Source: a virus
Reading direction: 5' to 3' (one strand)
Virus record (IMG/VR): IMGVR_UViG_3300039355_000071
DNA length: 64,000 nt
Shown: positions 11,461 to 47,328 of the stretch, piece by piece
Layout of the letters: the number at the start of each line of letters is the position of its first letter
How positions within the stretch are numbered: the stretch's first letter is position 1
Notes under the pieces: model-generated
Database searches by the model: none
The model's input: the letters and a program-made list of their open reading frames with translations, nothing else
What the model was told of the DNA's origin: nothing
Translations under genes and position numbers: made by a program

Positions 11461-11560
11461 TCAAAGGAAATTGTAATTTCTCGGTAGAATAATTACAAGA
11501 TATAGTAGTAAATAAAACAAACAAACACAATATATAGTATAAGAAAAGGAGATTAAAATT

Positions 11561-12073
11561 ATGAGAGCAAACGAAGTAAAGGAAACAAGAGAAGTAGTAG
11601 TAAGAACAGAGTACATTGCAGAGGATGGAACTGTATTTAGAAGCGAAGAAGAGTGCAAGAAATATGAGGAATCAGCACTTTTTGCAATTAGTAAAGAGTT
11701 AAAGAGACTGACAAAAGATAATACATCTCAAAGTGAAATCAATGATAATTTTTCATATGATGATACTGTAGAAATTTTTGATGTACAGACAGAAAGAGAT
11801 TTAGAAAATCTTAGAAGATATTTATATCTTAAAGCAAGAAATAATGGAGCATCCGAAAGTAGTGTAAATGATTGTTTTAAGTCAACAGATGGAAAAAGAA
11901 ACAATTATGTGTTTAGTAATGTAACATATGGACACGAAGTAATGATCTTTTGGGATTATGAAGAACAGTGGTTCTGGGTATATGGAAATGGTAGCATTGA
12001 GGCATTTTGCAATTTCCATAAGGATAGAATCACAAAGCTTATTACACCAAAGGAGGAAAATGCAGATGCTTAA
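11561..12073 (+). CDS. hypothetical protein (170 aa)
   Basis: RBS AAAAGGAGAT. Preceded by the CACAATATATAGTAT motif. Confidence 0.55.
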   Translation: MRANEVKETREVVVRTEYIAEDGTVFRSEEECKKYEESALFAISKELKRLTKDNTSQSEINDNFSYDDTVEIFDVQTERDLENLRRYLYLKARNNGASESSVNDCFKSTDGKRNNYVFSNVTYGHEVMIFWDYEEQWFWVYGNGSIEAFCNFHKDRITKLITPKEENADA

Positions 12074-12221
12074 TATAACATTCAAATATAAAGATGCAAT
12101 GAGTAATTGGGAATGGAGAACACAAAGTTGTACAGTGTCATCTGTTGAAGAATGTAAGCGAGTTTACGGACTTGACAATGGCGATGTTGAATACGAGATT
12201 TTAGAAGTCAAAGAGGCATAA
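12060..12221 (+). CDS. small hypothetical protein
   Basis: RBS AAAGGAGGAAA. Confidence 0.4.
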   Translation: MQMLNITFKYKDAMSNWEWRTQSCTVSSVEECKRVYGLDNGDVEYEILEVKEA

Positions 12222-12232
12222 TACAGAGAATA

Positions 12233-12262
12233 ATAAGGCAGACGCAAACATATGTGTCTGTC
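12233..12262 (+). terminator. terminator-like hairpin
   Basis: GGCAGACgcaaacatatgtGTCTGTC then TTATTTG. Confidence 0.4.
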
Positions 12263-12399
12263 TTATTTGTTGGAAAGGAGAATGCGAAATGATTACACGG
12301 AATTATTTTGGAAGCTCGAACCACGAAAATGCATGCACAAGATAGTGTAAATCATATTATGGAAAAGAGATTTGGTGCAAGAAAGTGAGGTTGAGCAAT

Positions 12400-13086
12400 A
12401 TGTATATAGAACATGATTATCATTATATAAATGCAAATGAAAATTTACTAATAGAAAAAGGTTACGGAAAAATCTCAATACATTCTATTCATTTTGATAG
12501 GCATTATTCAGAAGAGCAGAAGGAAAAGAATAGACAGATTGCAGAATCCATGACAAGTGAGCAATGGAGTAGACACTGCGAAGAGGTCGCAAAAGATTTT
12601 TCAAAACCAATGGAAAATATTTTGAAAATCTTTTTAAACAAATATTCCATATTCCAAGCATCAGAAAATGTTTCATATGATAGTGATTGGGATTTATATT
12701 TTTGGAGTAATAAAGGATGGAATGGGAAAGATTATATGGACTGTTTCAAACTTGAGTTTAACACGAATAGAAGTGTAGAAAAGAATATGACTTTGTTAAA
12801 TGAAATTATTCCACTCGTTGAGTCTATGGAATATGAAAACATAGGTTGCCGTATACAATATAATGCTGTCTTAGACAAAGAAAAAATAGAAAGAGAAGCG
12901 AAAGAAATCTGCGAAAAGCTTACAGGAAAATTTATAACATATTGTGGAATTGAAGGAAAAATCAAAGTTGTGGATGAAGTTAATAACTATAAAATTTATG
13001 GATTTTTTAAGAAAGGTGCAAGAAGTAAGTATTACAAAGTATCAAATGTAGAAATATTAGCAATGAAATTACAAGAGGCAATTTAA
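12400..13086 (+). CDS. hypothetical protein (228 aa)
   Basis: RBS GTGAGG. Confidence 0.5.
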   Translation: MYIEHDYHYINANENLLIEKGYGKISIHSIHFDRHYSEEQKEKNRQIAESMTSEQWSRHCEEVAKDFSKPMENILKIFLNKYSIFQASENVSYDSDWDLYFWSNKGWNGKDYMDCFKLEFNTNRSVEKNMTLLNEIIPLVESMEYENIGCRIQYNAVLDKEKIEREAKEICEKLTGKFITYCGIEGKIKVVDEVNNYKIYGFFKKGARSKYYKVSNVEILAMKLQEAI

Positions 13087-16761: not shown

Positions 16762-16902
16762 ATGGCATATTTAATAGCATTTATTATTGTATTTGGTATT
16801 CCTTATTATCTTAATCAAAAGGAAGAATCTCGTAAGAGACAAGATATGTATAATAACTTAAACAAGAAGTCTGTAGATGAAATGGAAAAGTGGAGAAAAT
16901 AG
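16762..16902 (+). CDS. small single-TM membrane protein (46 aa)
   Basis: RBS ACGGAGGTAA. MAYLIAFIIVFGIPYYL is a hydrophobic N-terminus. Confidence 0.4.
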   Translation: MAYLIAFIIVFGIPYYLNQKEESRKRQDMYNNLNKKSVDEMEKWRK

Positions 16903-19381: not shown

Positions 19382-19684
19382 AATATGTGTAAACGACATG
19401 ACAATACAAACAGATCAAGTGAATTTATCTGTTTAAGATGTCTTAGTAAAAATCAAGTTGGTGATAAAATGCGTAGACCGAATATGAGAGAAAAAGATCA
19501 TGTAAAAAACTTGTGTTGTCTATGTACAAAGTTGCAAATGAGAACTAAAAATCTTGAAGTTAGGTGGTGCGATGATTTTGACGAGCGTATGGAATACGCA
19601 AAGAAAATTAAACCCAGATATTATGATGAGAATAATGAACTGCTACCTGAATGGCAAACGGAGAATATGTATGTAGGAAAGTGA
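19382..19684 (+). CDS. Cys-rich zinc-finger protein (100 aa)
   Basis: RBS GAGGTGA. CLRCLSKN..CCLCTKL. Confidence 0.45.
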   Translation, partial: NMCKRHDNTNRSSEFICLRCLSKNQVGDKMRRPNMREKDHVKNLCCLCTKLQMRTKNLEVRWCDDFDERMEYAKKIKPRYYDENNELLPEWQTENMYVGK

Positions 19685-19689
19685 GGTTG

Positions 19690-21160: not shown

Positions 21161-21226
21161 ATTTTACCTCCTATACATTTTTGTAAATAGATTATCATAA
21201 AATATTATATTTTACAATAATATATC

Positions 21227-22667: not shown

Positions 22668-22691
22668 TTACAAAATAATAGTAGAAGGGAG

Positions 22692-32804: not shown

Positions 32805-32959
32805 TACAAGTAAAATTCAAGAGTTGGTAGGTGTCATAGCCTACTGACTCTATCAATATACCATATATAGCAACTATAAAACACAATATATACTATATAT
32901 GGTATATAAATTATATTAGAAGGAAACGCACATTTCTTATGGAATTTCGGAGGTGAAAT

Positions 32960-33139
32960 ATGAATATTTTAAACATTATTTTATTGATTATGGGAATTTT
33001 CAATTTGATTATGGGGATAACATGGTCGAAAAAGAATGTTCTCAACCTTGTATTCAAATTATTATTCTTGGCAGGTGGTGGCTATTTAGTATTCTATGCT
33101 TTATATCTGAGCAACATTTTGATTGTTTTGAATAAGTAA
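32960..33139 (+). CDS. small two-TM membrane protein (59 aa)
   Basis: RBS CGGAGGTGAAAT. MNILNIILLIMGIFNLIMGI... Confidence 0.4.
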   Translation: MNILNIILLIMGIFNLIMGITWSKKNVLNLVFKLLFLAGGGYLVFYALYLSNILIVLNK

Positions 33140-33151
33140 GAGGAGAATAGT

Positions 33152-33313
33152 ATGTATAAATCCACAATAAGATTTTTAATATGGCTTATGACATTAAATT
33201 TATTAATGAATTTTATTTTTCCAGAACCAGTTGAGTTATGGAAATTTATATTAATAGAGATATGTTTAGGATTTTTGTCATTTATTATGGTTGATTGGAA
33301 AGAAGATAAGTGA
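33152..33313 (+). CDS. small membrane protein (53 aa)
   Basis: RBS AAGAGGAGAAT. Confidence 0.4.
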   Translation: MYKSTIRFLIWLMTLNLLMNFIFPEPVELWKFILIEICLGFLSFIMVDWKEDK

Positions 33314-33320
33314 GGTAAAT

Positions 33321-33542
33321 ATGAAATATGTTGTTATTTTAATTGGTCTATTATTCTTGCTATTTGTACCATACATGTTAGCAGACTATATTAAACCATT
33401 ACAAAAGTTCTTTTGTAAAATAGGATGGCATTGTCACCAAAAGGATTATATTACTGAGAGTTTTGATGGTGCTTCCATGCACTGCAAATGTAAATGGTGT
33501 GGTTACAAAGGTATGGTAGATAGTCAAGGAAATTTATTTTAG
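33321..33542 (+). CDS. small membrane protein with Cys-rich tail (73 aa)
   Basis: RBS GTGAGGTAAAT. HCKCKWCGYKG. Confidence 0.45.
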   Translation: MKYVVILIGLLFLLFVPYMLADYIKPLQKFFCKIGWHCHQKDYITESFDGASMHCKCKWCGYKGMVDSQGNLF

Positions 33543-33554
33543 GAGATTAAGACA

Positions 33555-34583
33555 ATGACAATTGAACAGATTAAGGACAAATTAAAATCAAAAGAGTATG
33601 ACTTCCTGAGAACAGATAAGAATTTGGGTAACAATATCATTATCTTAACTCTTGGTGGAAGTCATGCATATGGAATGGATAAAGAAGGATCTGATTTAGA
33701 TGTGAGAGGTATTGCACTCAACAGCAAATCAGATATTTTACTTGGAACAGACTTTGAACAGGTCGTAGATGTTGATACGGATACAACTATGTATTCGTTT
33801 AATAAAATGATACAGCTTTTAGCATCAAGTAATCCTAATACAATTGAACAACTTGGCTGTTTGCCTGAGCATTATTTACATTTATCTAAAATTGGTAAAG
33901 AATTATTGGATAATAGAAAAATGTTTCTTTCGCAGATTTGTGTTCATACCTTTGGAGGATATGCTGGTTCTCAGCTCAGACGTATGGAAAACAAGGCTGC
34001 AAGATTGGTTGGTCAGGCAGAAAATGAAGCCTACATTTTAAAAAGCATCAATAATGCAAGATATGAATTTAAAAACAGATATTACCCTCATGAAAATAGT
34101 GATGTGAAACTATATATTGATAAGGCTGTTCAAGAAGGATATGATAGTGAGATTTTTATGGATGTAAACTTGCAACATTATCCGTTAAGAGATTGGGCTG
34201 GCATGTGGAACGAAATGAAGTCCATTGTTAGTAGTTATAGCAAATTTGGTAAAAGAAATGAAAAGGCTGTAGCCCATGATAAATTAGGAAAACATATGGC
34301 TCATTTGATTCGATTATATATGATGTGTATTGATATTCTGGAAAAGGAAGAGATTATCACTTATAGATCAGATGAACACGATTTACTTATGAGTATTAGA
34401 AATGGAGAATATTTAGATGAAAATAGACAACCTATTTCTGAGTTCTATGATTTATTGAATGAATATGAAAAACGTTTTGAATACGCAAAAGAAAATACAT
34501 CTTTGCCTGATAAACCTGATTATAAGAAAATCAATGAATTTAAGATGTATGTAAATGAGAGAATTGTGAAAGGAGATATCTGA
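33555..34583 (+). CDS. Pol-beta-superfamily nucleotidyltransferase
   Basis: LTLGGSHAYGMDKEGSDLDVRGI is the GS-x(9-13)-DxD signature. First gene of the overlapping four-gene operon. Confidence 0.55.
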   Translation: MTIEQIKDKLKSKEYDFLRTDKNLGNNIIILTLGGSHAYGMDKEGSDLDVRGIALNSKSDILLGTDFEQVVDVDTDTTMYSFNKMIQLLASSNPNTIEQLGCLPEHYLHLSKIGKELLDNRKMFLSQICVHTFGGYAGSQLRRMENKAARLVGQAENEAYILKSINNARYEFKNRYYPHENSDVKLYIDKAVQEGYDSEIFMDVNLQHYPLRDWAGMWNEMKSIVSSYSKFGKRNEKAVAHDKLGKHMAHLIRLYMMCIDILEKEEIITYRSDEHDLLMSIRNGEYLDENRQPISEFYDLLNEYEKRFEYAKENTSLPDKPDYKKINEFKMYVNERIVKGDI

Positions 34584-35545
34584 TGGAAATATCAAATAGA
34601 GCAAAAGAAAGATTCTGTAAGGATTGCAATATACCAATTAGATTATTCCAAGAGCCATATTTTTTAGATAGAATTAAGCTTTTTGATGAGTTTTATGGAA
34701 CTGTTGACAAGTGGATTAGATTTGTAAGCGAATTACAGGAGTATAATTGTGAGCAGGATTATTTTGAAGAATATAATCATGTAAAGGATGCAGCTATTAC
34801 AAGTATCAAAGAGTCAGAGGCATATCAGAGATTTAATGCGGAAGATATGAACAAATTCACTGTGATTCATAAAAATTTATCTAATAAAGATATATTTAAG
34901 TCAACTAATACTGGAAGAGTTTTTATCAGTATTGATATGAGAAAGGCTAATTTTTCATCTTTACACGAATATGATAAGAATATATTTCGTGGGACTGATA
35001 CATGGGAAGATTTTATTTCTCAATTCACGGATAACGAACATATTGCAAATAGTAAATATATTCGCCAGGTTATTCTTGGTAATTGTAATCCTAAAAGACA
35101 TATCACCTATGAAAAATACCTTATGGATCAGACATTATCGTTATTATATGACATCATTGGTGAAGAGAGAATTGTATTCTTTTCAAATGATGAGATCGTT
35201 TATGATATGACAACTGCAAGTAATTTGCACATGTTAAGTCTTGTGAGAAATTGTGTTGAAGAAAGATTAAATACAAAATCTAATATTCCATTCAGAGTAG
35301 AGTTATTTTCACTCCACAAGATCAATGGTACTGACGGATACTGTAAGAAAATCTATAAAGAAAATGGAGAATATAATATTGAATTTAAGTGTTTGGATAA
35401 TTATATGATGCCATTCGTACTTAGATATTTCTTAGGAGAAGAAATTACTGAAAGTGACAAGGTGTTCTACCATGAAGGGCTATTGGCAAAGTTTATTGAA
35501 GAACCGAAAATTGAGGTGAATTTGGATGAAAAGATTGAAAATTGA
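34583..35545 (+). CDS. hypothetical protein (320 aa), operon partner
   Basis: ATGG overlap with the upstream stop. Confidence 0.5.
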   Translation: MEISNRAKERFCKDCNIPIRLFQEPYFLDRIKLFDEFYGTVDKWIRFVSELQEYNCEQDYFEEYNHVKDAAITSIKESEAYQRFNAEDMNKFTVIHKNLSNKDIFKSTNTGRVFISIDMRKANFSSLHEYDKNIFRGTDTWEDFISQFTDNEHIANSKYIRQVILGNCNPKRHITYEKYLMDQTLSLLYDIIGEERIVFFSNDEIVYDMTTASNLHMLSLVRNCVEERLNTKSNIPFRVELFSLHKINGTDGYCKKIYKENGEYNIEFKCLDNYMMPFVLRYFLGEEITESDKVFYHEGLLAKFIEEPKIEVNLDEKIEN

Positions 35546-36935
35546 AATTCCATCTGGTGCAAATGAAATTATCCATAGTCTACAAAATAATGGATATGAG
35601 GCATTTTTATGTGGCGGTGCAGTAAGAGATAGTATTCTTGGCAGAACAATTCACGATTATGACATTACAACTTCTGCCACACCAGATGAAATGATGGAAG
35701 TATTCAAGGATAAAAGAATTATTGAAACTGGATTACAACATGGAACTATTACCATTGTAATTGACGGTGAAGGATATGAATGTACCACTTACAGAATTGA
35801 CGGTAATTACTCAGATAGTCGTAGACCTGATAGCGTAACATTTACACGAAATCTTAAAGAAGATTTAAAGCGTAGAGATTTTACAATCAATGCGATGGCA
35901 TACAATGATGAAGTTGGACTTGTAGATCCATTTAATGGCATGGAAGATATTGAGCATTATAAAATCAGATGTGTTGGTAGAGCAGAGGATAGATTTTCAG
36001 AAGATGCTTTAAGGATTTTACGTGCTATTCGGTTTGCTTCACAATTGGGATTTGTAGTTGACTCTGATGTAAGTTTGAACATTCATAAAATGTATAAGAA
36101 TTTAGAGAATATATCTATTGAGAGAATCAACAGTGAGTTCTGTAAAATTGCATTATCAAGCGAGTTTTATATACAGATAGGATTATTCCGTGAAGTATTC
36201 TCGTTATTTATTCCTGAAATAAAAGATATGTTTGATTTTCCGCAGAATAATCCATATCACATCTATGATGTATGGAATCATACAGTACATGCAGTACATG
36301 CTTATGAATGTGATTGTGAACCCGACTTGAATCCAAGGGATTTGATTACATCATTGGCTGTATTTTTTCATGATATTGGAAAGCCACATTGTTATCAAGA
36401 TGGCGAGGATGGCATTAGACATTTCAAAGGTCATGGAAGAGTCAGTGCTGATATGACTGATACAATTATGAAAAGACTTCGTTTTGATAATGATACAAGA
36501 GAAAAGGTAATGCAGCTTGTTTATTATCATGATGCAACTTTTGAAGTGGGTGAAAAGTATATCAAGAGATGGCTCAATAAGATTGGAGAAGAACAATTTA
36601 GAAGATTACTGAATGTTCGTAGAGCAGATATTAAAGCGCAGGCTTATACAGATCAAGAAAGTAGGCTTCAGAAAATTGACAATATCGAATATATCTTAGA
36701 GGAAGTTTTACAGAAAGACGAATGTTTCTCACTGAAAGATTTGGCTGTTGATGGCAATGATTTGATTGAGATTGGATATAAGCCAGGAAAAGAAATAGGG
36801 AATACACTGAATTGTCTTTTGCAGTTAGTAATTGAAGGTGTATATCTAAACGAGAAAAGTGAGTTACTTAAATATGTTGAAACAACAAAAGAATGGATGA
36901 AGTTAGGAGAGAATTATAATGGTAAGATTATTTAG
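35526..36935 (+). CDS. cca: CCA-adding enzyme (tRNA nucleotidyltransferase with C-terminal HD domain)
   Basis: LCGGAVRDSILGRTIHDYDITT (GGAVRD plus DxD) and FFHDIGKPH (HD). Confidence 0.8.
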   Translation: MKRLKIEIPSGANEIIHSLQNNGYEAFLCGGAVRDSILGRTIHDYDITTSATPDEMMEVFKDKRIIETGLQHGTITIVIDGEGYECTTYRIDGNYSDSRRPDSVTFTRNLKEDLKRRDFTINAMAYNDEVGLVDPFNGMEDIEHYKIRCVGRAEDRFSEDALRILRAIRFASQLGFVVDSDVSLNIHKMYKNLENISIERINSEFCKIALSSEFYIQIGLFREVFSLFIPEIKDMFDFPQNNPYHIYDVWNHTVHAVHAYECDCEPDLNPRDLITSLAVFFHDIGKPHCYQDGEDGIRHFKGHGRVSADMTDTIMKRLRFDNDTREKVMQLVYYHDATFEVGEKYIKRWLNKIGEEQFRRLLNVRRADIKAQAYTDQESRLQKIDNIEYILEEVLQKDECFSLKDLAVDGNDLIEIGYKPGKEIGNTLNCLLQLVIEGVYLNEKSELLKYVETTKEWMKLGENYNGKII

Positions 36936-37842
36936 CCACAGTGATTTAGACGGAATCGGTTGTGGTATTTTAGCACAACTTGCATTTGGTAAAGATAATG
37001 TAGAAATTTCATATTGTGATTATGACAATATTGATTCAACTGTAAAGAAATATTTGGAAATAGAACAGGACGACACAATTCCAATTTATATTACCGATAT
37101 TCGTGTCAATGAAGAAACTGCTGAGTTGCTGAATAAAAGAGGCAATGTTCAGTTATTAGATCATCATCCAACAGCTCTTGGATTAAATAAGTATGATTGG
37201 TGTGATGTAGTTATCGAAGATTCCAAAGGAATTAAAACATCGGGAACTATGTTGTTTTATCATTACTTAGGTATGAATGGTTGTCTGAGTGAAGAGTTAG
37301 AGAATAATAAAGCGTTAGAGAGATTTGCTGAACTTGTGAGAGATTATGACACTTGGAGATGGTCAGAACTCGGTGATGAAGGTGTTATTTGTAAGCAGGT
37401 AAATGATTTATTATATCTTTACGGTAGAGATGATTTTATTCATTGGTGCATTTCAGAAATCCATGATGAGGTATTTCCAAGATTATATGCTAAAGATGAG
37501 GTTATTCTGAAGATTAAGCAGGATGAAATTGATAGATATATCGAAGAGAAGAATGAAACTATGTTTACCAGTCCTATGTGTGGTAAGGTTTGTGGTTTTG
37601 TATTTGCAGATAGGTTTGTTAGCGAATTAGGTAATAGACTTTGTAAAATGCATCCTGAAATTGATTTTGTGGCTATGATTGATATTGATGGTTGTACGGT
37701 ATCTTATAGAACCGTTAAAGAAGATATTGATCTTGGTAAAGATGTAGCAAGTTTATTTGGTGGCGGTGGTCATCCAAAAGCTGTTGGTTTAGAATTTAGT
37801 CAGAATATTAAGTCGAAAGTTATTGAGGAAATTTTTGAATAG
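36919..37842 (+). CDS. DHH/DHHA1 phosphoesterase (NrnA-like nanoRNase / pAp phosphatase family)
   Basis: SHSDLDGIGCG (motif I), LLDHHP (motif III), GGGGHPKAVG (DHHA1). Confidence 0.7.
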   Translation: MVRLFSHSDLDGIGCGILAQLAFGKDNVEISYCDYDNIDSTVKKYLEIEQDDTIPIYITDIRVNEETAELLNKRGNVQLLDHHPTALGLNKYDWCDVVIEDSKGIKTSGTMLFYHYLGMNGCLSEELENNKALERFAELVRDYDTWRWSELGDEGVICKQVNDLLYLYGRDDFIHWCISEIHDEVFPRLYAKDEVILKIKQDEIDRYIEEKNETMFTSPMCGKVCGFVFADRFVSELGNRLCKMHPEIDFVAMIDIDGCTVSYRTVKEDIDLGKDVASLFGGGGHPKAVGLEFSQNIKSKVIEEIFE

Positions 37843-40364: not shown

Positions 40365-40681
40365 GTTCTGCTTGTGGTGATAAGCCACAGTTAGTTGGAG
40401 GTATTGGTGAGATAAATTTTGGAAAGCAATTTCGCCAGGGTAATAGGGTATATGATTCAGACCATGTAGCAATGTGTTTATTAGCACAGCCTGTAGGTAA
40501 TGCTGGTGGATTTAGTTATTTATATGTGGTTAGAAAATAAAATGGAGAATAATACAATAAGTAGTTGAAAACAAAATAGCATATACAATATATAGTATTA
40601 AATAATTACAACAAATACTATATATTGTATAAAAATCAAGACCGAAAGAAAGCGGATTTTCTTACGATGAAAGGAGATAAT

Positions 40682-41404
40682 ATGTATCCAGAATACGATG
40701 ATTTTTATGAGCCAAGTGAAGTCGAAATGTTTTTTGATGAAATGAAAGAAAAGTTCAGAGAGATTTTACGTGAAGATGTAAACTCTGAAATCAGCAGATT
40801 AACAAAAGAAAATATAGAATTAAGGCAAAAGGTTAAAGAGTACAATGATAAAAATTTAGATTTTTCTTGTAGAGAAAGAGATTTGCAGTACAAGATAGAT
40901 AATTACAAACGAGAGGTAGAAAAAGACTTTTACAATAAAACAATGGAAGAAGTTTTTGAGAAACTTTTAGAAGACTCAGAAGTGTGGTACGCAGAACGTG
41001 TTCCTCATGAGAAACCAAAATGTAATTTATGCAACGAAGAAAGAAAACTTGTTGCAGTATATCCAAATGGTGAAACTGTAACCAAGGAGTGTGAATGTTC
41101 TCGACCAATATATATCTATGAGCCAGTTATTTCATTGAATAAGGAGATTAAATTTCATAAAGCATATAAACCAAAGTGCGGCGATAAAAAGAAAGTCTAT
41201 TTTACTAAAAATCACGAGCCAAACAAGGATTATGCAGATGCGTATGATTATTACAGTGAATTCAGAATAGAAAATATTTTTGATGATTTTAATGATGATG
41301 TAATTGCATATCACAATGGTAAAAGATATGGAGAGAAAATCGCATTCAGAAGTAAAGAGGCTTGTCAGAAATATTGTGATTGGCTTAATAAGGAGAATAA
41401 GTAG
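40682..41404 (+). CDS. hypothetical protein (240 aa)
   Basis: RBS GAAAGGAGATAAT. Preceded by the inverted ATACAATATATAGTAT motifs. Confidence 0.5.
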   Translation: MYPEYDDFYEPSEVEMFFDEMKEKFREILREDVNSEISRLTKENIELRQKVKEYNDKNLDFSCRERDLQYKIDNYKREVEKDFYNKTMEEVFEKLLEDSEVWYAERVPHEKPKCNLCNEERKLVAVYPNGETVTKECECSRPIYIYEPVISLNKEIKFHKAYKPKCGDKKKVYFTKNHEPNKDYADAYDYYSEFRIENIFDDFNDDVIAYHNGKRYGEKIAFRSKEACQKYCDWLNKENK

Positions 41405-41602
41405 ATGGTAGACATTCAGTGTAAAGACGGAAAATATATTATTGAGGCAAGGATTCATAGTGAAGTTGATACAAATGATATTGCAAAAGTGCAGGAAAGA
41501 TTTACTTCTGATTGTGCTTATGAGTTTGCAGAAGCTATGAGAGAAGCAGTAAACGTTAGCCATTTGGTAATGAAAGAACAAAGAAAAGAGGTAACAAAAT
41601 GA
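41405..41602 (+). CDS. small hypothetical protein (65 aa)
   Basis: RBS AAGGAGAATAAG. Confidence 0.45.
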   Translation: MVDIQCKDGKYIIEARIHSEVDTNDIAKVQERFTSDCAYEFAEAMREAVNVSHLVMKEQRKEVTK

Positions 41603-42111
41603 GCAAAACATTAATCGTAGTAGATATGCAGAATGATTTTATTGATGGCTCACTCGGTACAAAGGAAGCACAGACAATTGTATCGAATGTAGCAAAGAAA
41701 ATTAAGGAGTACAAGGATGCTGGTAAACAGGTAATCTTTACAAGAGACACACACCCTGAGAATTATTTGGAAACATATGAGGGTAAGCATCTTCCTGTTA
41801 CTCACTGTGTAAAGAATACTGTTGGTTGGCAGATTTCAGATAGGTTAGATTTTGATATTGAGAACGATATTCTGATTGATAAGCCTACTTTTGGTTGGTT
41901 AAACTGGAAGGATTTTGGATTTGAAAGTGTTGAGGTTTGCGGATTATGCACCGACATCTGTGTGGTTTCAAATGCACTTATTATTAGAGCAAATTATCCT
42001 GAGATTGATATTACAGTAGATGCAAGCTGTTGTGCAGGTGTCACACCTGATACTCACAATGCTGCATTAGCAACTATGAAGATGTGTCAGATCGAAGTGA
42101 TTGGAGAGTAG
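41599..42111 (+). CDS. isochorismatase-family cysteine hydrolase (nicotinamidase PncA-like)
   Basis: LIVVDMQNDF and CGLCTDICV (catalytic Asp and Cys context). 170 aa. Confidence 0.6.
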   Translation: MSKTLIVVDMQNDFIDGSLGTKEAQTIVSNVAKKIKEYKDAGKQVIFTRDTHPENYLETYEGKHLPVTHCVKNTVGWQISDRLDFDIENDILIDKPTFGWLNWKDFGFESVEVCGLCTDICVVSNALIIRANYPEIDITVDASCCAGVTPDTHNAALATMKMCQIEVIGE

Positions 42112-42114
42112 AAT

Positions 42115-42951
42115 ATGATTAAAATTAATGGCGAAATTGTAACAATCAACAAGTTTCCAGATGGAACACCAAGAGTAAATATTGATATAAACAACATTGA
42201 GGAAGACTCTTATGATGGCTCTCCTTGTATTTGGATTGAATGGATTTATGAGAGTAACGATGAGATATTTTATCTGATGTTAGTAAAGAAACATCTTGAA
42301 AGATTTTTTACTAATGTGGATTATTATTTGTCTCTTCCATATATTCCTAATGCACGAATGGATAGAGTAAAAAATGATGATGAAGTATTCACATTGAAGT
42401 ATTTTTGCGATTTTATCAATTGGTTAGGATTTTCATCAGTTTATGTTTTAGATGCTCATAGCGATGTTTCTACTGCATTACTCAATAATTGTGTAAAAGA
42501 AAATCCAAAAGAGTATGTTGATAAAGCTATTTCAAAGATTGGTATGAGAAATCTTGTACTTTATTTCCCAGATGCAGGTGCAGCTAAGAGATATTCAGAT
42601 TTATTTCCTGAGTTACCATATTGTTATGGTGAAAAGAAGAGAGATTGGAAGACTGGTAAAATCCTTGGATTAGACATTAGAACAAATGGTATTGATTTGA
42701 AAGATAAAGCTGTGTTAATGATTGATGATATTATCGCATATGGCGGTTCACTTTATTATAGTGCAGAAGAATTGAAGAAACATGGTGTAACTGAGATTTA
42801 TGCATATGCCACTCATACAGAGAATTCAATTCTTAATAAAGAAAAAGGAACATTAATCAAATCTTTGGAGAATAATACTGTGAACAGATTATTTACCACA
42901 AACAGTTTATTTAATGGTAGTCATGAAAAAATTACGGTTATGGAGGTTTAA
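42115..42951 (+). CDS. ribose-phosphate pyrophosphokinase (Prs)-like enzyme; candidate ADPR-pyrophosphate synthetase (Adps) of a NARP1 module
   Basis: KFPDGT (N-terminus), VLDAHSDV, FPDAGAAKRY, VLMIDDIIAYGGSL (PRPP-binding-like loop). Confidence 0.65.
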   Translation: MIKINGEIVTINKFPDGTPRVNIDINNIEEDSYDGSPCIWIEWIYESNDEIFYLMLVKKHLERFFTNVDYYLSLPYIPNARMDRVKNDDEVFTLKYFCDFINWLGFSSVYVLDAHSDVSTALLNNCVKENPKEYVDKAISKIGMRNLVLYFPDAGAAKRYSDLFPELPYCYGEKKRDWKTGKILGLDIRTNGIDLKDKAVLMIDDIIAYGGSLYYSAEELKKHGVTEIYAYATHTENSILNKEKGTLIKSLENNTVNRLFTTNSLFNGSHEKITVMEV

Positions 42952-42955
42952 AATT

Positions 42956-44416
42956 ATGGATAACACAATGGCTTTATTATTATCAGATACTTATAAACAG
43001 TGTCATGATCGCATGTACCCAAATGGTTTGACTAAATTGGTGTCGTATTGGGTGCCTCGAAAATCAATGTTAGAGAATCAGAATGAAATGGTTTTCTTTG
43101 GATTGCAGGCATTTATCAAAGAATATTTAATGGGAGATTTTCAGAAAAATTTCTTCGATTTATCGGAAGATGAGATGTTAACTCTTTATACAGATTCGAT
43201 GGATGTACAGATTGGTAGAGACAACTATGATTTAGATAAAATTGTAGAGCTTCACAGATTAGGATATTTACCACTTGAGATTAGAGCATTGCCAGAAGGT
43301 ACACTTGTTCCTATGGGTGTTCCTTGTATTGAGATTACAAATACGGATGATAAATTTGCTTGGCTTGTTCAGTGGATTGAATGTATTCTTCAGGTAGAAT
43401 TATGGAAACCTTGTTGTCATGCAACTATCGGTCATATGTATCGTGAAATTGCAGATTATTGGTATAACAAGACAACAGACGGATTGCCTGGAAATATGGC
43501 TTGTGCGGATTTTGGCATGAGAGGAATGTCTTGTATGGATGAAGCTACAAGATGTTCAGCATCATGGTTGCTTTCATTTAATAAGACATCTACAATTCCA
43601 GCAATTAATTATATTGATAGATATTACAATGCCGATTGTAAGAATAATGGTATTGGAATCGGTGCTGTCTCAACTGAGCATTCTGTAATGGGTGCTAATT
43701 TCTCAATTGATGGAGATGAGATTACGTTTGTTAAAAGACTTTTAACAGAGTTATATCCAAATACATCATTTAGTATGGTTTCAGATACTTATGATTATTG
43801 GAATATGGTAAATAATATTCTTCCACAGTGTAAAGAAGAGATTATGAATCATAATGGAAAGCTCTTGGTTCGTCCTGATAGTGGTGATATTGTAGAGATT
43901 TCAGTTAAAACAGTTGAAAGGTTGTGGGAGATTTTTGGTGGTTCTGTAAATGGTAAAGGTTATAAGGTATTAAATCCGCATATCGGTATTATTTATGGTG
44001 ATGGCTGCACACTTTCTAATGTAGAAACTATTTGGAAAGAATTAGAAAAGCGTGGTTTCGCAGCTAATAATATTGCTTATGGTGTAGGAGCTTTTTGCTT
44101 CACTGCAATCGTTGAAAACGGCAAGATGATTGTTGTTACAAGAGATACTTTTGGTATTGCAATGAAAGCTACATATGGAGTAATTGATGGCAAGAAGTTA
44201 ATGATTTTCAAAGATCCTAAGACAGATACAAGTCACTTAAAGAAATCTCATAAAGGATGTTGTAGAGTATACGATGATAACGGTGAATTAAAGTGTCAAG
44301 ATCAGTTACTTGAAATGAGTGATAACAGTTTACTTACTACCGTATTTAAAGATGGAGAATTAGTAAGAGAAGATACATTTGCGGATATTAGAAACAGAAT
44401 GTACGGAGGTAAGTAA
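42956..44416 (+). CDS. NAMPT-family type II phosphoribosyltransferase; candidate nicotinamide-ADPR transferase (Namat)
   Basis: N-terminal LLLSDTYKQCH (the D-[ST]-Y-K motif of NAMPT/PncB). About 487 aa from the RBS-supported ATG 42956. Confidence 0.65.
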   Translation: MDNTMALLLSDTYKQCHDRMYPNGLTKLVSYWVPRKSMLENQNEMVFFGLQAFIKEYLMGDFQKNFFDLSEDEMLTLYTDSMDVQIGRDNYDLDKIVELHRLGYLPLEIRALPEGTLVPMGVPCIEITNTDDKFAWLVQWIECILQVELWKPCCHATIGHMYREIADYWYNKTTDGLPGNMACADFGMRGMSCMDEATRCSASWLLSFNKTSTIPAINYIDRYYNADCKNNGIGIGAVSTEHSVMGANFSIDGDEITFVKRLLTELYPNTSFSMVSDTYDYWNMVNNILPQCKEEIMNHNGKLLVRPDSGDIVEISVKTVERLWEIFGGSVNGKGYKVLNPHIGIIYGDGCTLSNVETIWKELEKRGFAANNIAYGVGAFCFTAIVENGKMIVVTRDTFGIAMKATYGVIDGKKLMIFKDPKTDTSHLKKSHKGCCRVYDDNGELKCQDQLLEMSDNSLLTTVFKDGELVREDTFADIRNRMYGGK

Positions 44417-44877
44417 TGATTAAAATTATTGATGGAGACTTACTCACTTCGAACACTGATATTATTGCACACCAGGTTAATTGCAAAGGTGCTTTTAATT
44501 CTGGTGTTGCAAAAGCGATCCGTGATTATGATGTGCAAGTATATAAAGATTATCATAGTTTTTGTTCGATTAATACACCTGAACAATTATTGGGTTCTGT
44601 TAGATATTTTCAGTCTAATATTGACGCAAGAATATATGCAAATTTATTTGCACAAAAATCATATGGCTATGACGGAAAACAGTATACAGATATTGACGCT
44701 TTAAGAAAATGTTTTGAAAATTTGAGATCATATGCAGTTTTGGAAAATATGAGTATTGCAATGCCATATAAAATTGGATGTGTTCGTGGCGGTGCAAATT
44801 GGGAAGAAGTGTATCAAATGATAAATGATATATTTGAAAATTGTAATATTGAATTATGGAGGTTAGATAAAGGATGA
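44416..44877 (+). CDS. macro-domain (ADP-ribose-binding/processing) protein
   Basis: IIDGDLLTSNTDIIAHQVNCKGAFNSGVAKAI. Confidence 0.65.
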   Translation: MIKIIDGDLLTSNTDIIAHQVNCKGAFNSGVAKAIRDYDVQVYKDYHSFCSINTPEQLLGSVRYFQSNIDARIYANLFAQKSYGYDGKQYTDIDALRKCFENLRSYAVLENMSIAMPYKIGCVRGGANWEEVYQMINDIFENCNIELWRLDKG

Positions 44878-45632
44878 GTAATTTTGATGCTAAGAAAGTA
44901 AAGAATGAGATCGTAGAGTGGATTAGAGATTGGTTTGAACAGAATGGTAAAGATTGTATGGCAGTAGTTGGAATTTCTGGCGGTAAGGATTCAAGCGTTG
45001 TTGCTGGCTTATGTTGTGAAGCTCTTGGAAAAGATAGAGTTTTTGGTGTAATGATGCCACAGGGAGAACAGCCAGATATTGATTATTCTCGAATGCTTAT
45101 AGACCATCTTGGAATCGACAGTTGTGTTGTAAATATAGGCAATACAGTTCGCACTTTAAAGCATGAGATTAAACCACAGTTGGGAGATCATTGGTCAAAG
45201 CAGACTTCTACAAATCTCCCTGCTCGTATTCGTATGACTACGCTTTATGCAGTATCGCAGACAGTAAATGGTCGTGTCGCTAATACGTGTAATCTTTCAG
45301 AAACATTACTATCTTGGGAAACCAGATGGGGTGATGCAGTTGGAGATTTTGCACCAATTAGCGACTTAACAGTAAAAGAAGTGAAAGCTATTGGATATGA
45401 ACTTGGATTGCCAAATGAATTAATCGAAAAAATTCCGTCTGATGGACTGTGTGGAAGTACAGATGAAGATGCATTGGGATTTAAATACTCTGTTATGGAT
45501 AGATATATTAGAACAGGCGAGATTGACGACAAAGATATTAAAAAGAAAATTGATAATCGAGTAGAAAAATATCGGTTTAAGAGAATGCCTATTCCTTATT
45601 ATAAAACAGGTATGGAAAGATATGTAGACTAA
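44874..45632 (+). CDS. nadE: NH3-dependent NAD+ synthetase
   Basis: VVGISGGKDSSVVAGL (PP-loop SGGxDS). 252 aa. Confidence 0.7.
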   Translation: MSNFDAKKVKNEIVEWIRDWFEQNGKDCMAVVGISGGKDSSVVAGLCCEALGKDRVFGVMMPQGEQPDIDYSRMLIDHLGIDSCVVNIGNTVRTLKHEIKPQLGDHWSKQTSTNLPARIRMTTLYAVSQTVNGRVANTCNLSETLLSWETRWGDAVGDFAPISDLTVKEVKAIGYELGLPNELIEKIPSDGLCGSTDEDALGFKYSVMDRYIRTGEIDDKDIKKKIDNRVEKYRFKRMPIPYYKTGMERYVD

Positions 45633-45633
45633 A

Positions 45634-46833
45634 ATGGCAGAAGACTTAACTAATTTACAATTTGGAAAATTAACAGTCATCAAACGTGGAGACAACGATA
45701 AAAGCGGACATGTGAGATGGTGGTGTAAATGTGACTGTGGCAACCCTAAATTGATTTTAGTTGCCGCAGGACATTTAAAATCAGGACATACTCAATCATG
45801 TGGATGTATAAGAAGAGATAATATTAAACCACAAAAGAATTTAGAAGGAAAAAGATTTGGGAAATTAATTGTAAAAGAATTTCTTGGTATAAAAAATCAT
45901 AGATCATTATGGAGTTGTGATTGTGATTGTGGTAAGAAAATTAACGCTTTATCATCGTCTTTAACTTCTGGAAAACTTAAGTCATGTGGATGTTTATCTT
46001 CTGTAGCTGAGTTCGAATTAAGCCAGTTCTTGACAGATGAACAAATTATATTTGATACGCAATATAAGTTTGATGATTGTAAATATAAAAGAAGATTGCC
46101 ATTCGATTTTGCAATTTTTCATCCACAAAATAAGAAACTCTTATTTTTAATTGAACTACATGGAGAACAGCATTATTTTCCGTTTACATTTAATAGTGAG
46201 TCTGATATGCAAAAGAAGGAAAATTTTTTGCATAGAAAACATTTGGATAAATTAAAAGAAGATTATTGTAGTGAAAATAATATTCCATTGTTAATTATTA
46301 GATATACAAATTTTCAAACAAAAGAAAAAATTGTAAAAGGGTTTTATGAAAAGCTCTTGCAAAAGAATATTACATTTGATGATTATATATTTTCATCAAA
46401 ACAAATAAAGGATGATTTACAAGTAAAGCATAAACGTGTCTATAAAAGAAAAGTAGTCCAAATAGATATACCCAACAAGAATATTATAAGAGAATATAAT
46501 AGTATGGAAGAGGCATATAAGATAACTGGAATATCATCTGGACAGATTTCGGATTGTTGTAAGGGTAATTGTAAAACAGCAGGTGGATATGCCTGGGCAT
46601 ATAATAACGGAAACGTTAATATTGAAGAAGTAATTAAACGTGCAACAATTCCAAATAGAACAAATGCAGTTGTGATTTTCCAAAAAGATAAAAATGGAAA
46701 TATTATAAAAGAGTGGCAAAGTATAACAGAAGCAGCACATTCTTTGGGAGTAAGTCATCAAGGTATTCAAGCGTGTTGTTCAGGAAAGCAGAAAACTTGT
46801 AAAGGATTTGTTTGGAATTATAAGAAAGATTGA
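45634..46833 (+). mobile_element. homing-endonuclease-like gene: zinc-ribbon repeats, DUF559/Vsr-like PD-(D/E)xK nuclease core, C-terminal NUMOD-like DNA-binding repeats
   Basis: FGKLxV..W.C.CDCG..SCGC repeated twice. LPFDFAIFHPQNKKLLFLIELHGEQHY. Duplicated EY.S..EA...TGIS...I..CC.GK.KT..G..W.Y modules. Confidence 0.45.
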
Positions 46834-46914
46834 TTCAATGCATGAGAAAAATCTGTTTAAATTACAGCCGATGCCAAGTTTTGTGTATCAGGCGTAAATG
46901 AGATACTATATATA

Positions 46915-47328
46915 GTGCTTATAGAAAATATGGACACTATATATAGTAATATTTTTACCAAGAAACATAGATTTCATTTGAGACGAAAAGAGGTGAAGTT
47001 TTTGAAAATCGTACAGAATAAATCGCATTGCGATTTTAGAATAAAAATCGGAAATAACTATGTAACTGTTGCAACGCTTCATCCGTGGTTATTTAGTAAA
47101 CATAATCATAAATACAATCTGTATTTTTATTACTATGGAGCTGAATATGAGGAAGGAACGTATGCTTGCTGTCATAGAAATGGAAATGAAAAGATGGTGG
47201 TGTATGAGCAGGAAGATGAACTTCATAAAGAATTCCTTGAAAGAGTAAGAAGAATAATTTCAAAGAAGTTGTATGTAATAGGAAGTTCGATCCTGGAAGA
47301 AATAAAATACATTGAAGATGAAGATTAG
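46915..47328 (+). CDS. hypothetical protein (137 aa)
   Basis: Start uncertain (GTG 46915 or ATG 46930). Flanked by two ACTATATATAGT palindromes. Confidence 0.4.
   Translation: MLIENMDTIYSNIFTKKHRFHLRRKEVKFLKIVQNKSHCDFRIKIGNNYVTVATLHPWLFSKHNHKYNLYFYYYGAEYEEGTYACCHRNGNEKMVVYEQEDELHKEFLERVRRIISKKLYVIGSSILEEIKYIEDED

What the first reader, a model, noticed from the sequence alone, without database searches (positions are those of the whole stretch)
11526..46949. Recurrent promoter-like motif CAATATATAGTAT, often as inverted pairs, at scattered intergenic sites
Sites: 11526-11540, 32864-32921 (two copies in opposite orientation), 40580-40633 (a 16-bp perfect inverted pair, ATACAATATATAGTAT..ATACTATATATTGTAT) and 46905-46949 (two ACTATATATAGT palindromes). 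All are upstream of gene starts. This does not look like sigma-A and could be the recognition element of the phage-encoded sigma factor (23509) or of a dedicated regulator for a middle/late gene class.
Basis: seen in the sequence. Interest (0 to 1): 0.5.

Follow-up and report, generated by a model that had tools for sequence, protein, structure and literature searches.

The report
NrdR repressor boxes in a phage
The recurring AT-rich palindrome matches the binding site of NrdR, the bacterial repressor that senses dATP/ATP, and in this SPbeta-like gut phage it sits in front of replication, NAD-salvage and RNA-repair operons rather than directly in front of ribonucleotide reductase genes, which suggests that the phage ties much of its DNA-synthesis programme to the host's nucleotide sensor.

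Summary
The motif is a 16-bp palindrome, aTACwATATATwGTAt. It occurs at four intergenic sites in the window, always as two or three boxes whose centres are 31-32 bp apart.

It is not a sigma-factor promoter. In sequence and in layout it matches the operator of NrdR, the Zn-ribbon/ATP-cone repressor of ribonucleotide reductase genes:
- Experimentally tested Listeria boxes (ATACTATATATAGTAT, ACACAATATATAGTTA) are nearly identical to the phage boxes.
- A matrix built only from 16 tested bacterial boxes ranks the phage sites first in the window. Pair scores are 20.6-35.1, against at most 18.9 in 200 simulated sequences.
- The strict pattern lies directly upstream of nrdD in two unrelated bacteria.

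Across relatives of the phage, C4 and G13 are almost invariant and the spacing stays at 31-33 bp, while the spacer sequence drifts.

Two more pairs lie just past the window. One heads the replication module. The other heads a nucleotide module that ends in nrdDG.

No nrdR gene was found in about 103 kb of family sequence, so the host protein is the likely binder.

The inferred mechanism is that NrdR loaded with dATP and ATP blocks -35-less promoters that abut box 2, and that repression lifts when dATP falls. Binding and promoters are untested. I file this as new members of a known operator type in an unusual regulon.

The parts
11493..11508 (.). Site A, NrdR box 1 (TTACAAGATATAGTAG)
   Evidence: Matrix score 12.5. 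It pairs with 11525-11540 across a 16-bp spacer, pair score 31.5. The same pair is present in L161 and L162.
11525..11540 (.). Site A, NrdR box 2 (ACACAATATATAGTAT). The Shine-Dalgarno sequence (SD) of gene 11561-12073 starts about 6 nt after it.
   Evidence: Best single box in the window, score 19.0. It matches 14 of 16 positions of the tested Listeria nrdDG box 2, ACACAATATATAGTTA. Sequence.
11561..12073 (+). First gene after site A (170 aa, no family match)
   Evidence: ORF. No PHROG or Pfam hit.
32858..32873 (.). Site B, NrdR box 1 (ATACCATATATAGCAA). It follows a terminator-like hairpin at 32821-32852.
   Evidence: In relatives the box reads ATACCATATATAGTAT.
32881..32896 (.). Site B, extra overlapping box (ACACAATATATACTAT)
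   Evidence: Matrix score 12.7. It is not in phase with the other two boxes and is absent from relatives, so it is probably incidental.
32890..32905 (.). Site B, NrdR box 2 (ATACTATATATGGTAT)
   Evidence: Score 13.2; 16-bp spacer to box 1; pair score 20.6. Conserved in more than 15 relatives.
32960..37842 (+). Operon after site B: a 59-aa membrane peptide, an RlaP nucleotidyltransferase, a 320-aa protein, a CCA-adding/poly(A) polymerase-type tRNA nucleotidyltransferase and a DHH phosphoesterase
   Evidence: PHROG hits. Pfam annotations on the matching contig.
40552..40567 (.). Site C, box 0 (ATACAATAAGTAGTTG), a weaker third box in phase
   Evidence: Score 9.9. 15-bp spacer to box 1, pair score 27.1. 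Conserved in relatives as ATACAATAGATAGTTA.
40583..40598 (.). Site C, NrdR box 1 (ATACAATATATAGTAT)
   Evidence: Score 17.2. Sequence.
40615..40630 (.). Site C, NrdR box 2 (ATACTATATATTGTAT)
   Evidence: Score 17.9. 16-bp spacer; best pair in the window, 35.1. The pair is retained in relatives whose downstream protein is only 62% identical, while the spacer differs (L159).
40631..40636 (+). Inferred -10-like hexamer (AAAAAT) abutting box 2 of site C
   Evidence: Inference. Hexamers of the form nAwwwT occupy this position at most class-2 sites and in relatives. No transcription start has been mapped.
40646..40663 (+). Small leader hairpin AAGAAA-N6-TTTCTT ahead of the SD of gene 40682
   Evidence: Alignment of 12 leaders: 6 predicted pairs, 2 of them with compensatory changes. 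The hairpin is also present in relatives that lack the boxes. Its function is unknown.
40682..46833 (+). Operon after site C: a 240-aa protein, an isochorismatase-family protein, a ribose-phosphate pyrophosphokinase-like protein, nicotinamide phosphoribosyltransferase, a phosphatase, NAD synthetase and an HNH homing endonuclease
   Evidence: PHROG hits. Pfam annotations on the matching contig.
46903..46918 (.). Site D, NrdR box 1 (ATACTATATATAGTGC)
   Evidence: Score 18.1. It matches 14 of 16 positions of the tested Listeria nrdAB proximal box 2, ATACTATATATAGTAT.
46934..46949 (.). Site D, NrdR box 2 (ACACTATATATAGTAA)
   Evidence: Score 16.2. 15-bp spacer, pair score 34.3.
46950..46955 (+). 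Inferred -10-like hexamer (TATTTT) abutting box 2 of site D
   Evidence: Inference. One relative reads GTGATATTTT, which gives a TGn extended -10.
47002..47328 (+). First gene after site D (108 aa, no family match), followed by a run of small + strand genes

Best explanation
The motif is the operator of NrdR. Each site is a pair, or at site C a triple, of 16-bp palindromic NrdR boxes separated by 15-16 bp. That layout fits an NrdR tetramer touching two boxes three helical turns apart.

In this roughly 150-kb SPbeta-like gut phage the operators head at least six + strand transcription units:
- A: genes of unknown function.
- B: tRNA/RNA repair.
- C: NAD salvage.
- D: genes of unknown function.
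- E: DNA replication.
- F: a nucleotide module that runs through ThyX, NAD-dependent ligase and guanylate kinase to NrdD and NrdG.

The binder is most likely the host's NrdR. Loaded with dATP and ATP, it would sit on box 2, which abuts a -35-less -10-like hexamer, and on box 1, and so keep RNA polymerase off the promoter. When dATP falls relative to ATP, for example once DNA synthesis drains the pool, NrdR would leave the DNA and these operons would switch on.

Shown here: the sequence identity to tested boxes, the phasing, the conservation across relatives, the genomic positions, and the positive and negative controls. Inferred: that NrdR binds these sites, that the NrdR is the host's, where the promoters are, and the direction of regulation.
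For: 1. Match to the published operator. The NrdR site is described as two 16-bp palindromic boxes with a 15-16 bp spacer, about three turns between centres, with positions 4 and 13 critical. The window pairs have spacers of 16, 16, 16 and 15 bp and carry C4 and G13.

2. Near-identity to tested boxes. The Listeria nrdAB proximal box 2 (ATACTATATATAGTAT) and nrdDG box 2 (ACACAATATATAGTTA) each match a phage box at 14 of 16 positions.

3. Independent scoring. A matrix built only from 16 tested boxes of Listeria, Streptococcus and E. coli puts phage boxes in the top five single positions and the top five pairs of the window. Pair scores are 35.1, 34.3, 31.5, 27.1 and 20.6. The best pair in any of 200 Markov-simulated sequences scores 18.9.

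4. Conservation across relatives. Among 65 distinct family pairs, centre spacing is 31 bp (26 pairs), 32 bp (35) or 33 bp (4). C4 and G13 are present in 64-65 of 65. Spacers are variable. The pair persists at site C in relatives whose downstream protein is 62% identical.

5. Positive control. The strict pair pattern has 5 hits in 185,579 species genomes. One is this phage. Two of the other four lie directly upstream of nrdD or nrdDG, in a WOR-3 bacterium and a Defluviitaleaceae bacterium. An unrelated viral contig has a pair 88 bp upstream of nrdD.

6. Negative control. SPbeta itself (134 kb) has no pair; its best score is 13.9.

7. Functional coherence. Site E heads the replication genes. Site F heads a module that ends in nrdDG.

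8. Promoter context. A -10-like hexamer and a conserved leader follow box 2. This resembles the S. pneumoniae nrdDG arrangement described.

9. Precedent for the trigger. Phage infection is reported to derepress the host NrdR regulon.
Against: - No binding or transcription data exist for these sites.
- The host is unknown, and no nrdR gene was found in about 103 kb of family sequence, so the presence of NrdR is assumed from its near-universality in bacteria.
- NrdR is described as RNR-specific, yet none of the operators is directly upstream of an RNR gene. The phage's own nrdD has no proximal boxes.
- The C and F operators are missing in very close relatives, so they are dispensable.
- No convincing -35 element is present, and the polymerase that starts transcription at these sites is unidentified. 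Candidates are host sigma-A, the phage sigma, or the YonO-like polymerase.
- The conservation statistics come from sites that were selected by similarity to the consensus.
Confidence: 0.78

Rival explanations
1. NrdR sponge. The boxes are genuine NrdR sites, but their main role is to soak up host NrdR as the phage genome replicates. That would derepress the host ribonucleotide reductase operons and raise dNTP supply. Control of the adjacent phage genes would be secondary.
For: There are at least 13 near-consensus boxes per genome. Several score higher than many natural bacterial boxes. Phage infection is reported to induce the host NrdR regulon. The number of operators varies among close relatives, as expected for a dosage element.
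Against: Every pair sits at a fixed short distance upstream of a start codon and next to a -10-like hexamer and a conserved leader. A pure decoy does not need that placement. The phage carries its own nrdDG. The two roles are not mutually exclusive.
Confidence: 0.1
2. The boxes are the operator of a phage-encoded dimeric regulator that is not NrdR, for example one of the Cro/C1-type HTH proteins at 4242-4523 or 20930-21160. On this reading the resemblance to NrdR boxes is coincidence or mimicry.
For: Two HTH_26 genes lie in the early region. No nrdR gene has been found. The targets are not RNR genes.
Against: A coincidence would have to reproduce three things at once: the box sequence at 14 of 16 positions, the critical C4 and G13, and the 15-16 bp spacer. 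The same pattern marks nrdD promoters in unrelated bacteria. A different palindrome, TCACAAGATTTTGTGA at 4191-4206, lies just upstream of the HTH gene at 4242 and is a better candidate for that protein's own site.
Confidence: 0.06
3. The motif is the promoter recognised by the phage sigma factor (23509-24165) or by another phage polymerase, such as the YonO-like enzyme encoded upstream of the window.
For: The sites are intergenic, upstream of genes, and contain TATA-rich -10-like sequence. No sigma-A -35 element is visible. The phage encodes a sigma-like protein and a YonO-like polymerase.
Against: The motif is a perfect or near-perfect palindrome, although all the genes lie on one strand. It occurs as phased pairs 31-32 bp apart, not in a -35/-10 geometry. 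There are only four loci in 64 kb. The operator can be absent in close relatives while the gene and its leader remain.
Confidence: 0.04
4. The paired boxes work as RNA or DNA hairpins, for example RNase III sites, terminators or cruciforms, formed by pairing of box 1 with box 2.
For: Sites B, C and D would fold into stems of 14-18 bp, at -16.8 to -19.0 kcal/mol with z-scores of about -6 to -7. In one relative a flank change in box 1 is mirrored in box 2 (L141).
Against: Site A does not fold (-2 kcal/mol, z -0.8). The pairs at L159 and at site F are direct repeats rather than inverted ones. A hairpin does not explain why the same 16-mer recurs at unrelated loci, or why spacing is fixed at three helical turns. 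There is no Rfam match.
Confidence: 0.02

Closest known systems
NrdR box pairs of Listeria monocytogenes nrdAB and nrdDG (PMC12051234)
   Same: Both are 16-bp palindromes with C4 and G13. The core sequence is nearly identical (ATACTATATATAGTAT, ACACAATATATAGTTA). Spacers are 15-16 bp. Both lie at or next to the RNA polymerase site and can be close to the start codon; in Listeria nrdDG the start codon is 13 bp after box 2.
   Different: The Listeria sites control ribonucleotide reductase operons on a bacterial chromosome and have measured affinities. The phage sites precede replication, NAD-salvage, RNA-repair and unknown genes, and their binding is untested.
Three-box NrdR sites of Streptococcus pneumoniae nrdHEF and E. 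coli nrdAB (PMC12051234, PMC12176259)
   Same: More than two boxes occur in helical phase. Site C has boxes 0, 1 and 2, and relatives of site E also carry three boxes 31-32 bp apart. In S. pneumoniae nrdDG, box 2 covers the -35 region with the -10 downstream, as inferred here.
   Different: S. pneumoniae uses 24-26 bp spacers (four turns between centres). The phage uses only the three-turn spacing.
Streptomyces coelicolor NrdR-DNA complex (cryo-EM, PMC9110341)
   Same: It supplies the mechanism invoked here. A tetramer loaded with dATP and ATP holds two DNA-binding Zn-ribbon pairs about 80 Å apart, kinks each box, and blocks the promoter. The ATP-only form cannot bind DNA.
   Different: The organism is high-GC and its box flanks differ. 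No phage context is involved.
Phages that wire their genes to a host sensor-repressor, such as LexA boxes in temperate phages (from my own knowledge, not tested here)
   Same: A phage places operators for a host stress- or metabolite-sensing repressor in front of its own genes.
   Different: The sensor here would be the dATP/ATP ratio read by NrdR, not DNA damage read by LexA. The targets are replication and metabolic operons rather than lysis-lysogeny switches.
Bacillus phage SPbeta (NC_001884), the closest characterised genome type
   Same: Gene content is shared: a YonO-like polymerase, YorF, YorH and YopX families, Pol III alpha, an integrase-like protein and HTH genes in the early region.
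   Different: SPbeta has no NrdR box pair anywhere, not even at bnrdIEF. It carries a class Ib reductase, whereas this family carries class III NrdDG.

Membership tests
NrdR operator (NrdR box pair) | A 16-bp palindromic box with an AT-rich centre, C at position 4 and G at position 13 | tested here: met
   All eight paired boxes in the window have C4 and G13. Among 65 distinct family pairs the counts are C4 64/65 and 65/65, and G13 65/65 and 64/65 (the sites were selected by similarity to the consensus). The importance of positions 4 and 13 is stated.
NrdR operator (NrdR box pair) | Two boxes in tandem with a 15-16 bp spacer (14-17 tolerated), about three helical turns between centres | tested here: met
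   Window spacers are 16, 16, 16 and 15 bp. In family loci the spacing between neighbouring boxes is 31, 32 or 33 bp, apart from a few isolated values at 9, 45 and 62 bp.
NrdR operator (NrdR box pair) | Sequence recognisable by a model trained on experimentally bound boxes | tested here: met
   A matrix from 16 tested boxes ranks the phage boxes and pairs first in the window. Pair scores are 20.6-35.1, against a maximum of 18.9 in the simulations.
NrdR operator (NrdR box pair) | Located upstream of, or overlapping, the promoter of a ribonucleotide reductase operon (or of nrdR itself) | tested here: not met
   The first genes downstream are not RNR genes. The phage nrdD has no boxes within 500 bp. 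Only site F heads a co-directional gene run that reaches nrdDG about 10 kb downstream. In other genomes the same pattern does sit directly upstream of nrdD.
NrdR operator (NrdR box pair) | Bound by NrdR (Zn ribbon plus ATP-cone) in its dATP+ATP form, and released in the ATP-only form | not testable with these tools
   This needs a binding assay. No nrdR gene is present in the window or in about 103 kb of family loci, using a probe validated against PDB NrdR at E = 1e-38. The host genome is unknown.
Sigma-70-family promoter (host sigma-A or phage sigma) | Directional -35 and -10 elements separated by 16-18 bp | tested here: not met
   The motif is palindromic. The repeat distance is 31-32 bp. 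The consensus scan finds no promoter at these sites. A -10-like hexamer follows box 2 but has no -35 partner.
Structured RNA element (Rfam family, or a conserved hairpin between the boxes) | A fold shared by all copies, or a match to a known family | tested here: not met
   There is no Rfam hit at the sites. Sites B, C and D fold but site A does not. The pairs in L159 and at site F are direct repeats.

The most novel reading that the evidence does not exclude
The phage uses the host's dATP/ATP sensor NrdR as a master gate for its whole DNA-synthesis programme: replication, nucleotide synthesis including nrdDG, NAD salvage for its NAD-dependent ligase, and tRNA/RNA repair. These operons would fire only when the dNTP pool drops, whether through replication demand or through a host defence that depletes dNTPs. 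The many high-affinity boxes on replicating phage DNA might also titrate NrdR and derepress the host's reductases. That would extend NrdR from an RNR-specific repressor to a phage-exploited global timing signal, carried on swappable operator-promoter cassettes.
Probability: 0.35. Interest if true: 0.75.

Novelty: new member of a known kind. Interest (0 to 1): 0.55.

Why it matters
NrdR is treated in the literature as a repressor specific to ribonucleotide reductase genes. Here, canonical high-scoring NrdR operators head at least six operons of a large gut phage, and none of them begins with a reductase gene.

If NrdR binds these sites, several things follow:
- A phage would be reading the host's dATP/ATP ratio to schedule replication, nucleotide synthesis, NAD salvage and RNA repair. 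That is a metabolic timing mechanism distinct from sigma cascades and from LexA-type control.
- The NrdR regulon would be wider than currently described.
- The operators offer a simple handle, mutation of C4 and G13, for testing how dNTP pools shape phage development.
- The idea that phage DNA titrates a host repressor becomes testable.

In the 7 of my 10 permitted literature searches that I ran, I found no description of NrdR boxes controlling non-reductase phage genes. That search is limited to open-access text.

Tried and rejected
- Megablast of 20 kb of the window against known phages found no match. Only protein-level similarity to Bacillus myoviruses was seen, for one gene.
- The sigma-70 consensus scans found nothing at the sites.
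- A k-mer search of intergenic regions for another promoter motif mainly returned GAGAATA[AT]. This is mostly Shine-Dalgarno or gene-junction context and is not a clear promoter.
It was useful only for L010 and for family sites. The L019 pair lies inside a gene next to nrdD and was not pursued.
- I searched for a phage nrdR gene. tblastn with a probe written from memory and then validated gave nothing. A viral-contig scan with a two-sequence NrdR alignment used only N-terminal patterns, found six unrelated contigs, and is uninformative for this family.
- Walking downstream found nrdDG but no boxes next to it.
- A look-up of the last window ORF returned only a 3-kb contig.
- The RNA-hairpin reading was rejected because site A and the direct-repeat pairs do not fold.
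- Two Pfam/PHROG calls failed on wrong coordinates and were repeated.

Full report
**Observation**

The recurring unit is better described as a 16-bp palindrome, aTACwATATATwGTAt, with a 12-bp core ACWATATATWGT.

The core with up to one mismatch occurs 12 times in the window, against 2.3 expected; none of 100 shuffles reaches 12. Eight of these hits form four pairs. The four solitary hits (11450, 24393, 34109, 54589) are about what chance predicts.

- A: 11493-11508 and 11525-11540
- B: 32858-32873 and 32890-32905
- C: 40583-40598 and 40615-40630
- D: 46903-46918 and 46934-46949

The spacers are 16, 16, 16 and 15 bp, so the box centres are 31-32 bp apart. Site C has a weaker third box in phase at 40552-40567.

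**Context**

The window is positions 59042-123041 of a 301-kb ENA metagenome contig. IMG/VR holds dozens of relatives of about 150 kb.

Nearly all genes are on the + strand, and G+C is about 32%.

The gene content resembles SPbeta. A YonO-like polymerase lies just upstream of the window. YorF, YorH and YopX families and Pol III alpha lie downstream. An integrase-like gene and HTH genes sit in the early region.

Three strong sigma-A promoters with TG-extended -10 elements lie at 1795-2007.

The genes after the pairs are as follows:
- A: a 170-aa protein with no family match.
- B: a small membrane peptide, an RlaP nucleotidyltransferase, a CCA-adding-type tRNA nucleotidyltransferase and a DHH phosphoesterase.
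- C: an NAD-salvage operon with an isochorismatase-family protein, a Prs-like protein, nicotinamide phosphoribosyltransferase, a phosphatase and NAD synthetase.
- D: small genes with no family match.

**Identification**

The palindrome, its pairing and its spacing are those of the NrdR operator. The literature describes the NrdR site as two 16-bp palindromic boxes separated by 15-16 bp, about three helical turns between centres. Each half-box is bound by one Zn-ribbon of a tetramer, and positions 4 and 13 are critical.

Oligonucleotides used in binding assays include the Listeria nrdAB proximal box 2 (ATACTATATATAGTAT) and nrdDG box 2 (ACACAATATATAGTTA). Each matches a phage box at 14 of 16 positions.

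I ran three tests of this identification.

1. Independent matrix. A matrix built only from 16 tested boxes of Listeria, S. pneumoniae, S. thermophilus and E. coli was scanned over the window. The five best single positions are all phage boxes. The five best pairs are C (35.1), D (34.3), A (31.5), C box 0 with box 1 (27.1) and B (20.6). In 200 third-order Markov simulations the best pair never exceeded 18.9.

2. Positive control. The strict pattern ATACWATATATWGTAT-N14-18-ATACWATATATWGTAT has five hits in one genome each of 185,579 bacterial and archaeal species. One hit is this phage, binned into a Bacilli MAG. Two of the other four lie directly upstream of nrdD or nrdDG, in a WOR-3 bacterium and a Defluviitaleaceae bacterium. 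An unrelated 208-kb viral contig has a pair 88 bp upstream of its nrdD.

3. Negative control. The SPbeta genome has no pair; its best score is 13.9.

**Conservation**

In family loci the distance between neighbouring boxes is almost only 31, 32 or 33 bp.

Among 65 distinct pair sequences the spacing is 31 bp in 26, 32 bp in 35 and 33 bp in 4. C4 and G13 are present in 64-65 of 65. The spacer shows little conservation beyond being A-rich. These sites were collected by similarity to the consensus, which inflates the conservation of the core. The spacing result and the spacer drift are not affected.

At site C the pair persists in relatives whose downstream protein is only 62% identical, with a different spacer.

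**Further sites**

A fifth pair (E) lies about 150 bp beyond the window end, on the same contig. It heads the replication module: a DprA/YpsA-like protein, YopX, an AAA_24 protein, SSB, primase-helicase, a PD-(D/E)XK nuclease and Pol III alpha.

A sixth pair (F) follows Pol III alpha, an ERCC4 nuclease and an ExoX-like gene in many relatives. It heads a co-directional run containing ClpP, YpsA, ThyX, NAD-dependent ligase, guanylate kinase, NrdD and NrdG.

The phage nrdD itself has no boxes within 500 bp.

No pair occurs in the 10 kb upstream of the window, which holds the YonO-like gene.

**Who binds**

A tblastn probe for NrdR finds nothing in the window or in about 103 kb of family sequence. 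I wrote the probe from memory and then validated it against PDB NrdR chains at E = 1e-38.

NrdR is reported to be present in most bacteria, so the host protein is the likely binder. About 47 kb of the genome, probably late genes, was not examined.

**Promoter context (inferred)**

At sites B, C, D and E, and at their relatives, a hexamer of the form nAwwwT (AAAAAT, GAAAAT, TATTTT, TAAAAT) starts two bases after the box-2 core. In some copies the box flank supplies a TG. No -35 element is visible.

A conserved leader follows. It contains a small hairpin, AAGAAA-N6-TTTCTT, and then the Shine-Dalgarno sequence. An alignment of 12 leaders gives six predicted pairs, two with compensatory changes.

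Box 2 would then cover roughly -13 to -28 and box 1 roughly -45 to -60. A bound tetramer would exclude RNA polymerase. This is the arrangement described for S. pneumoniae nrdDG, where box 2 covers the -35 region and the -10 lies downstream.

At sites A and F the Shine-Dalgarno sequence follows box 2 within a few bases. Any transcription start there must lie inside box 2 or upstream of it.

Which polymerase initiates at these sites is unknown.

**Mechanism**

By analogy with the solved system, NrdR loaded with dATP and ATP forms a tetramer that binds both boxes and blocks transcription. With ATP alone it forms oligomers that cannot bind DNA.

The phage operons would therefore be held down while dATP is plentiful and released when it falls. 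Derepression of the host NrdR regulon during lytic infection has been reported for a pneumococcal phage. This shows that the signal changes during infection.

**Rivals**

- A sigma-factor promoter does not fit the palindromic symmetry, the 31-32 bp repeat distance or the small number of sites.
- An RNA hairpin between the boxes is possible at B, C and D (-17 to -19 kcal/mol). It is not possible at A (-2 kcal/mol), nor at the direct-repeat pairs in L159 and at site F. There is no Rfam match.
- A phage HTH protein as the binder would require a triple coincidence with the NrdR site.
- A titration role for the boxes cannot be excluded and is compatible with gene control.

**Variation**

The operator cassettes are not fixed. 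Only about a third of relatives carry a box pair at site C. In most of the others a 20-bp segment containing CATAAT replaces the roughly 95-bp box cassette, between the same flanks. Site F is likewise present in some close relatives and absent in others. The elements behave as exchangeable regulatory modules.

**Novelty**

The element type is well known. In seven literature searches I found no report of NrdR boxes governing non-reductase phage operons. One paper lists nrdR among the genes found in gut phages.

I classify the sites as new members of a known operator family in an unusual regulon. Binding and regulation remain to be shown.

Noticed in passing
L166 13963-16731 (about 13-16 kb upstream of window position 1, opposite strand): A 922-aa protein has a faint match to the RdRP family PF05183, as expected for a YonO-type single-subunit RNA polymerase. 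Together with YorF, YorH, YopX and Pol III alpha, this marks the phage as SPbeta-like.
   Followed up: partly
window 41599-45632: A complete-looking NAD-salvage operon: an isochorismatase-family (nicotinamidase-like) protein, a Prs-like protein, nicotinamide phosphoribosyltransferase, a phosphatase and NAD synthetase. An HNH homing endonuclease follows at 45634-46833. It could counter NAD-depleting defences or supply the phage's NAD-dependent ligase.
   Followed up: partly
window 33555-37842, 54966-55856, 57430-58440, 63249-64000: A cluster of RNA and tRNA repair or modification genes: RlaP, a CCA-adding-type nucleotidyltransferase, a DHH phosphoesterase, a radical SAM protein, a PAPS-reductase-like protein and Thg1. 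One relative (L171) carries an RNA ligase, a KTI12-family kinase-like protein and PTH2 instead.
   Followed up: no
window 1795-2007: Three tandem near-consensus sigma-A promoters (TTGACA, 17 bp, TAnnnT) with TG-extended -10 elements, at the head of the long + strand array of small genes. This is probably the early promoter cluster.
   Followed up: no
window, 57 sites on the + strand (for example 40545, 52413, 53767, 61156): GAGAATA[AT] occurs 57 times on the + strand and 4 times on the - strand. Most copies are at gene junctions, either as GGAGAATAAnnATG or 20-30 nt before a second Shine-Dalgarno sequence. One copy directly abuts box 0 of site C, and a related AGAATAAT abuts box 1 of site A.
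   Followed up: partly
window 32921-32938, 40646-40663, 46960-46977; L170 about 12355-12375; L221 about 16880-16900: A small leader hairpin (AAGAAA-N6-TTTCTT and variants such as ATGAAA..TTTCAT) lies about 10 nt before the Shine-Dalgarno sequence of several operons. It is also present in relatives that lack the NrdR boxes. A related ATTTCTTATGGAATT segment, without an obvious hairpin, precedes nrdD. Two of the six predicted pairs show compensatory changes. It could be a 5' stabiliser or a protein site.
   Followed up: partly
L121-L160 at locus position about 9900; L183-L228: The NrdR operator cassettes are present or absent among relatives whose flanking proteins are more than 90% identical. 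At site C a roughly 95-bp box cassette alternates with a 20-bp CATAAT-containing segment between the same flanks.
   Followed up: partly
window 19651-21687: An island with an integrase-family protein (354 aa), a divergent Cro/C1-type HTH gene (20930-21160, - strand) and a PemK-family toxin gene (21307-21687). The toxin gene has a perfect TTGACA-17-TATAAT promoter at 21227-21255. The layout resembles the yopP/yopR region of SPbeta.
   Followed up: no
window 4191-4206: A different palindrome, TCACAAGATTTTGTGA, lies about 35 bp upstream of the HTH_26 gene at 4242-4523. It may be that protein's own operator.
   Followed up: no
window 22265-22337 and 22593-22668: tRNA-Gln (TTG) and tRNA-Met (CAT) genes lie just upstream of the sigma-factor region.
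   Followed up: yes
window 23315-25590: A 65-aa Zn-ribbon protein overlaps the start of the sigma-like gene (23509-24165). A GmrSD_N (DUF262)-family protein follows at 24184-25590. It contains a solitary perfect palindrome, ACAATATATTGT, at 24393.
   Followed up: no
L220, L223, L227 (about 16.9-20.4 kb in each locus): In some relatives nrdD matches in two pieces separated by about 1.2 kb, which suggests an intron or intein insertion.
   Followed up: no
L173 (CAKPSO010000025.1): A 19.9-kb contig carrying site C of this phage is binned into an 'uncultured Bacilli bacterium' MAG from a Hadza gut sample. This is a weak hint about the host.
   Followed up: no
L177-L182: Six unrelated viral contigs encode matches to the N-terminal 40-65 residues of NrdR only, mainly its Zn-ribbon DNA-binding domain. 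Phage-encoded NrdR fragments could mimic or antagonise the host repressor.
   Followed up: no
L174 1419-1466 (Neisseria sp.) and L172 6027-6074 (Clostridia MAG): Perfect NrdR-type box pairs lie next to genes that are not reductases: a methyltransferase and mraZ in the Neisseria contig, and spoVAC in the Clostridia MAG. NrdR operators outside nrd loci may therefore not be confined to this phage.
   Followed up: no
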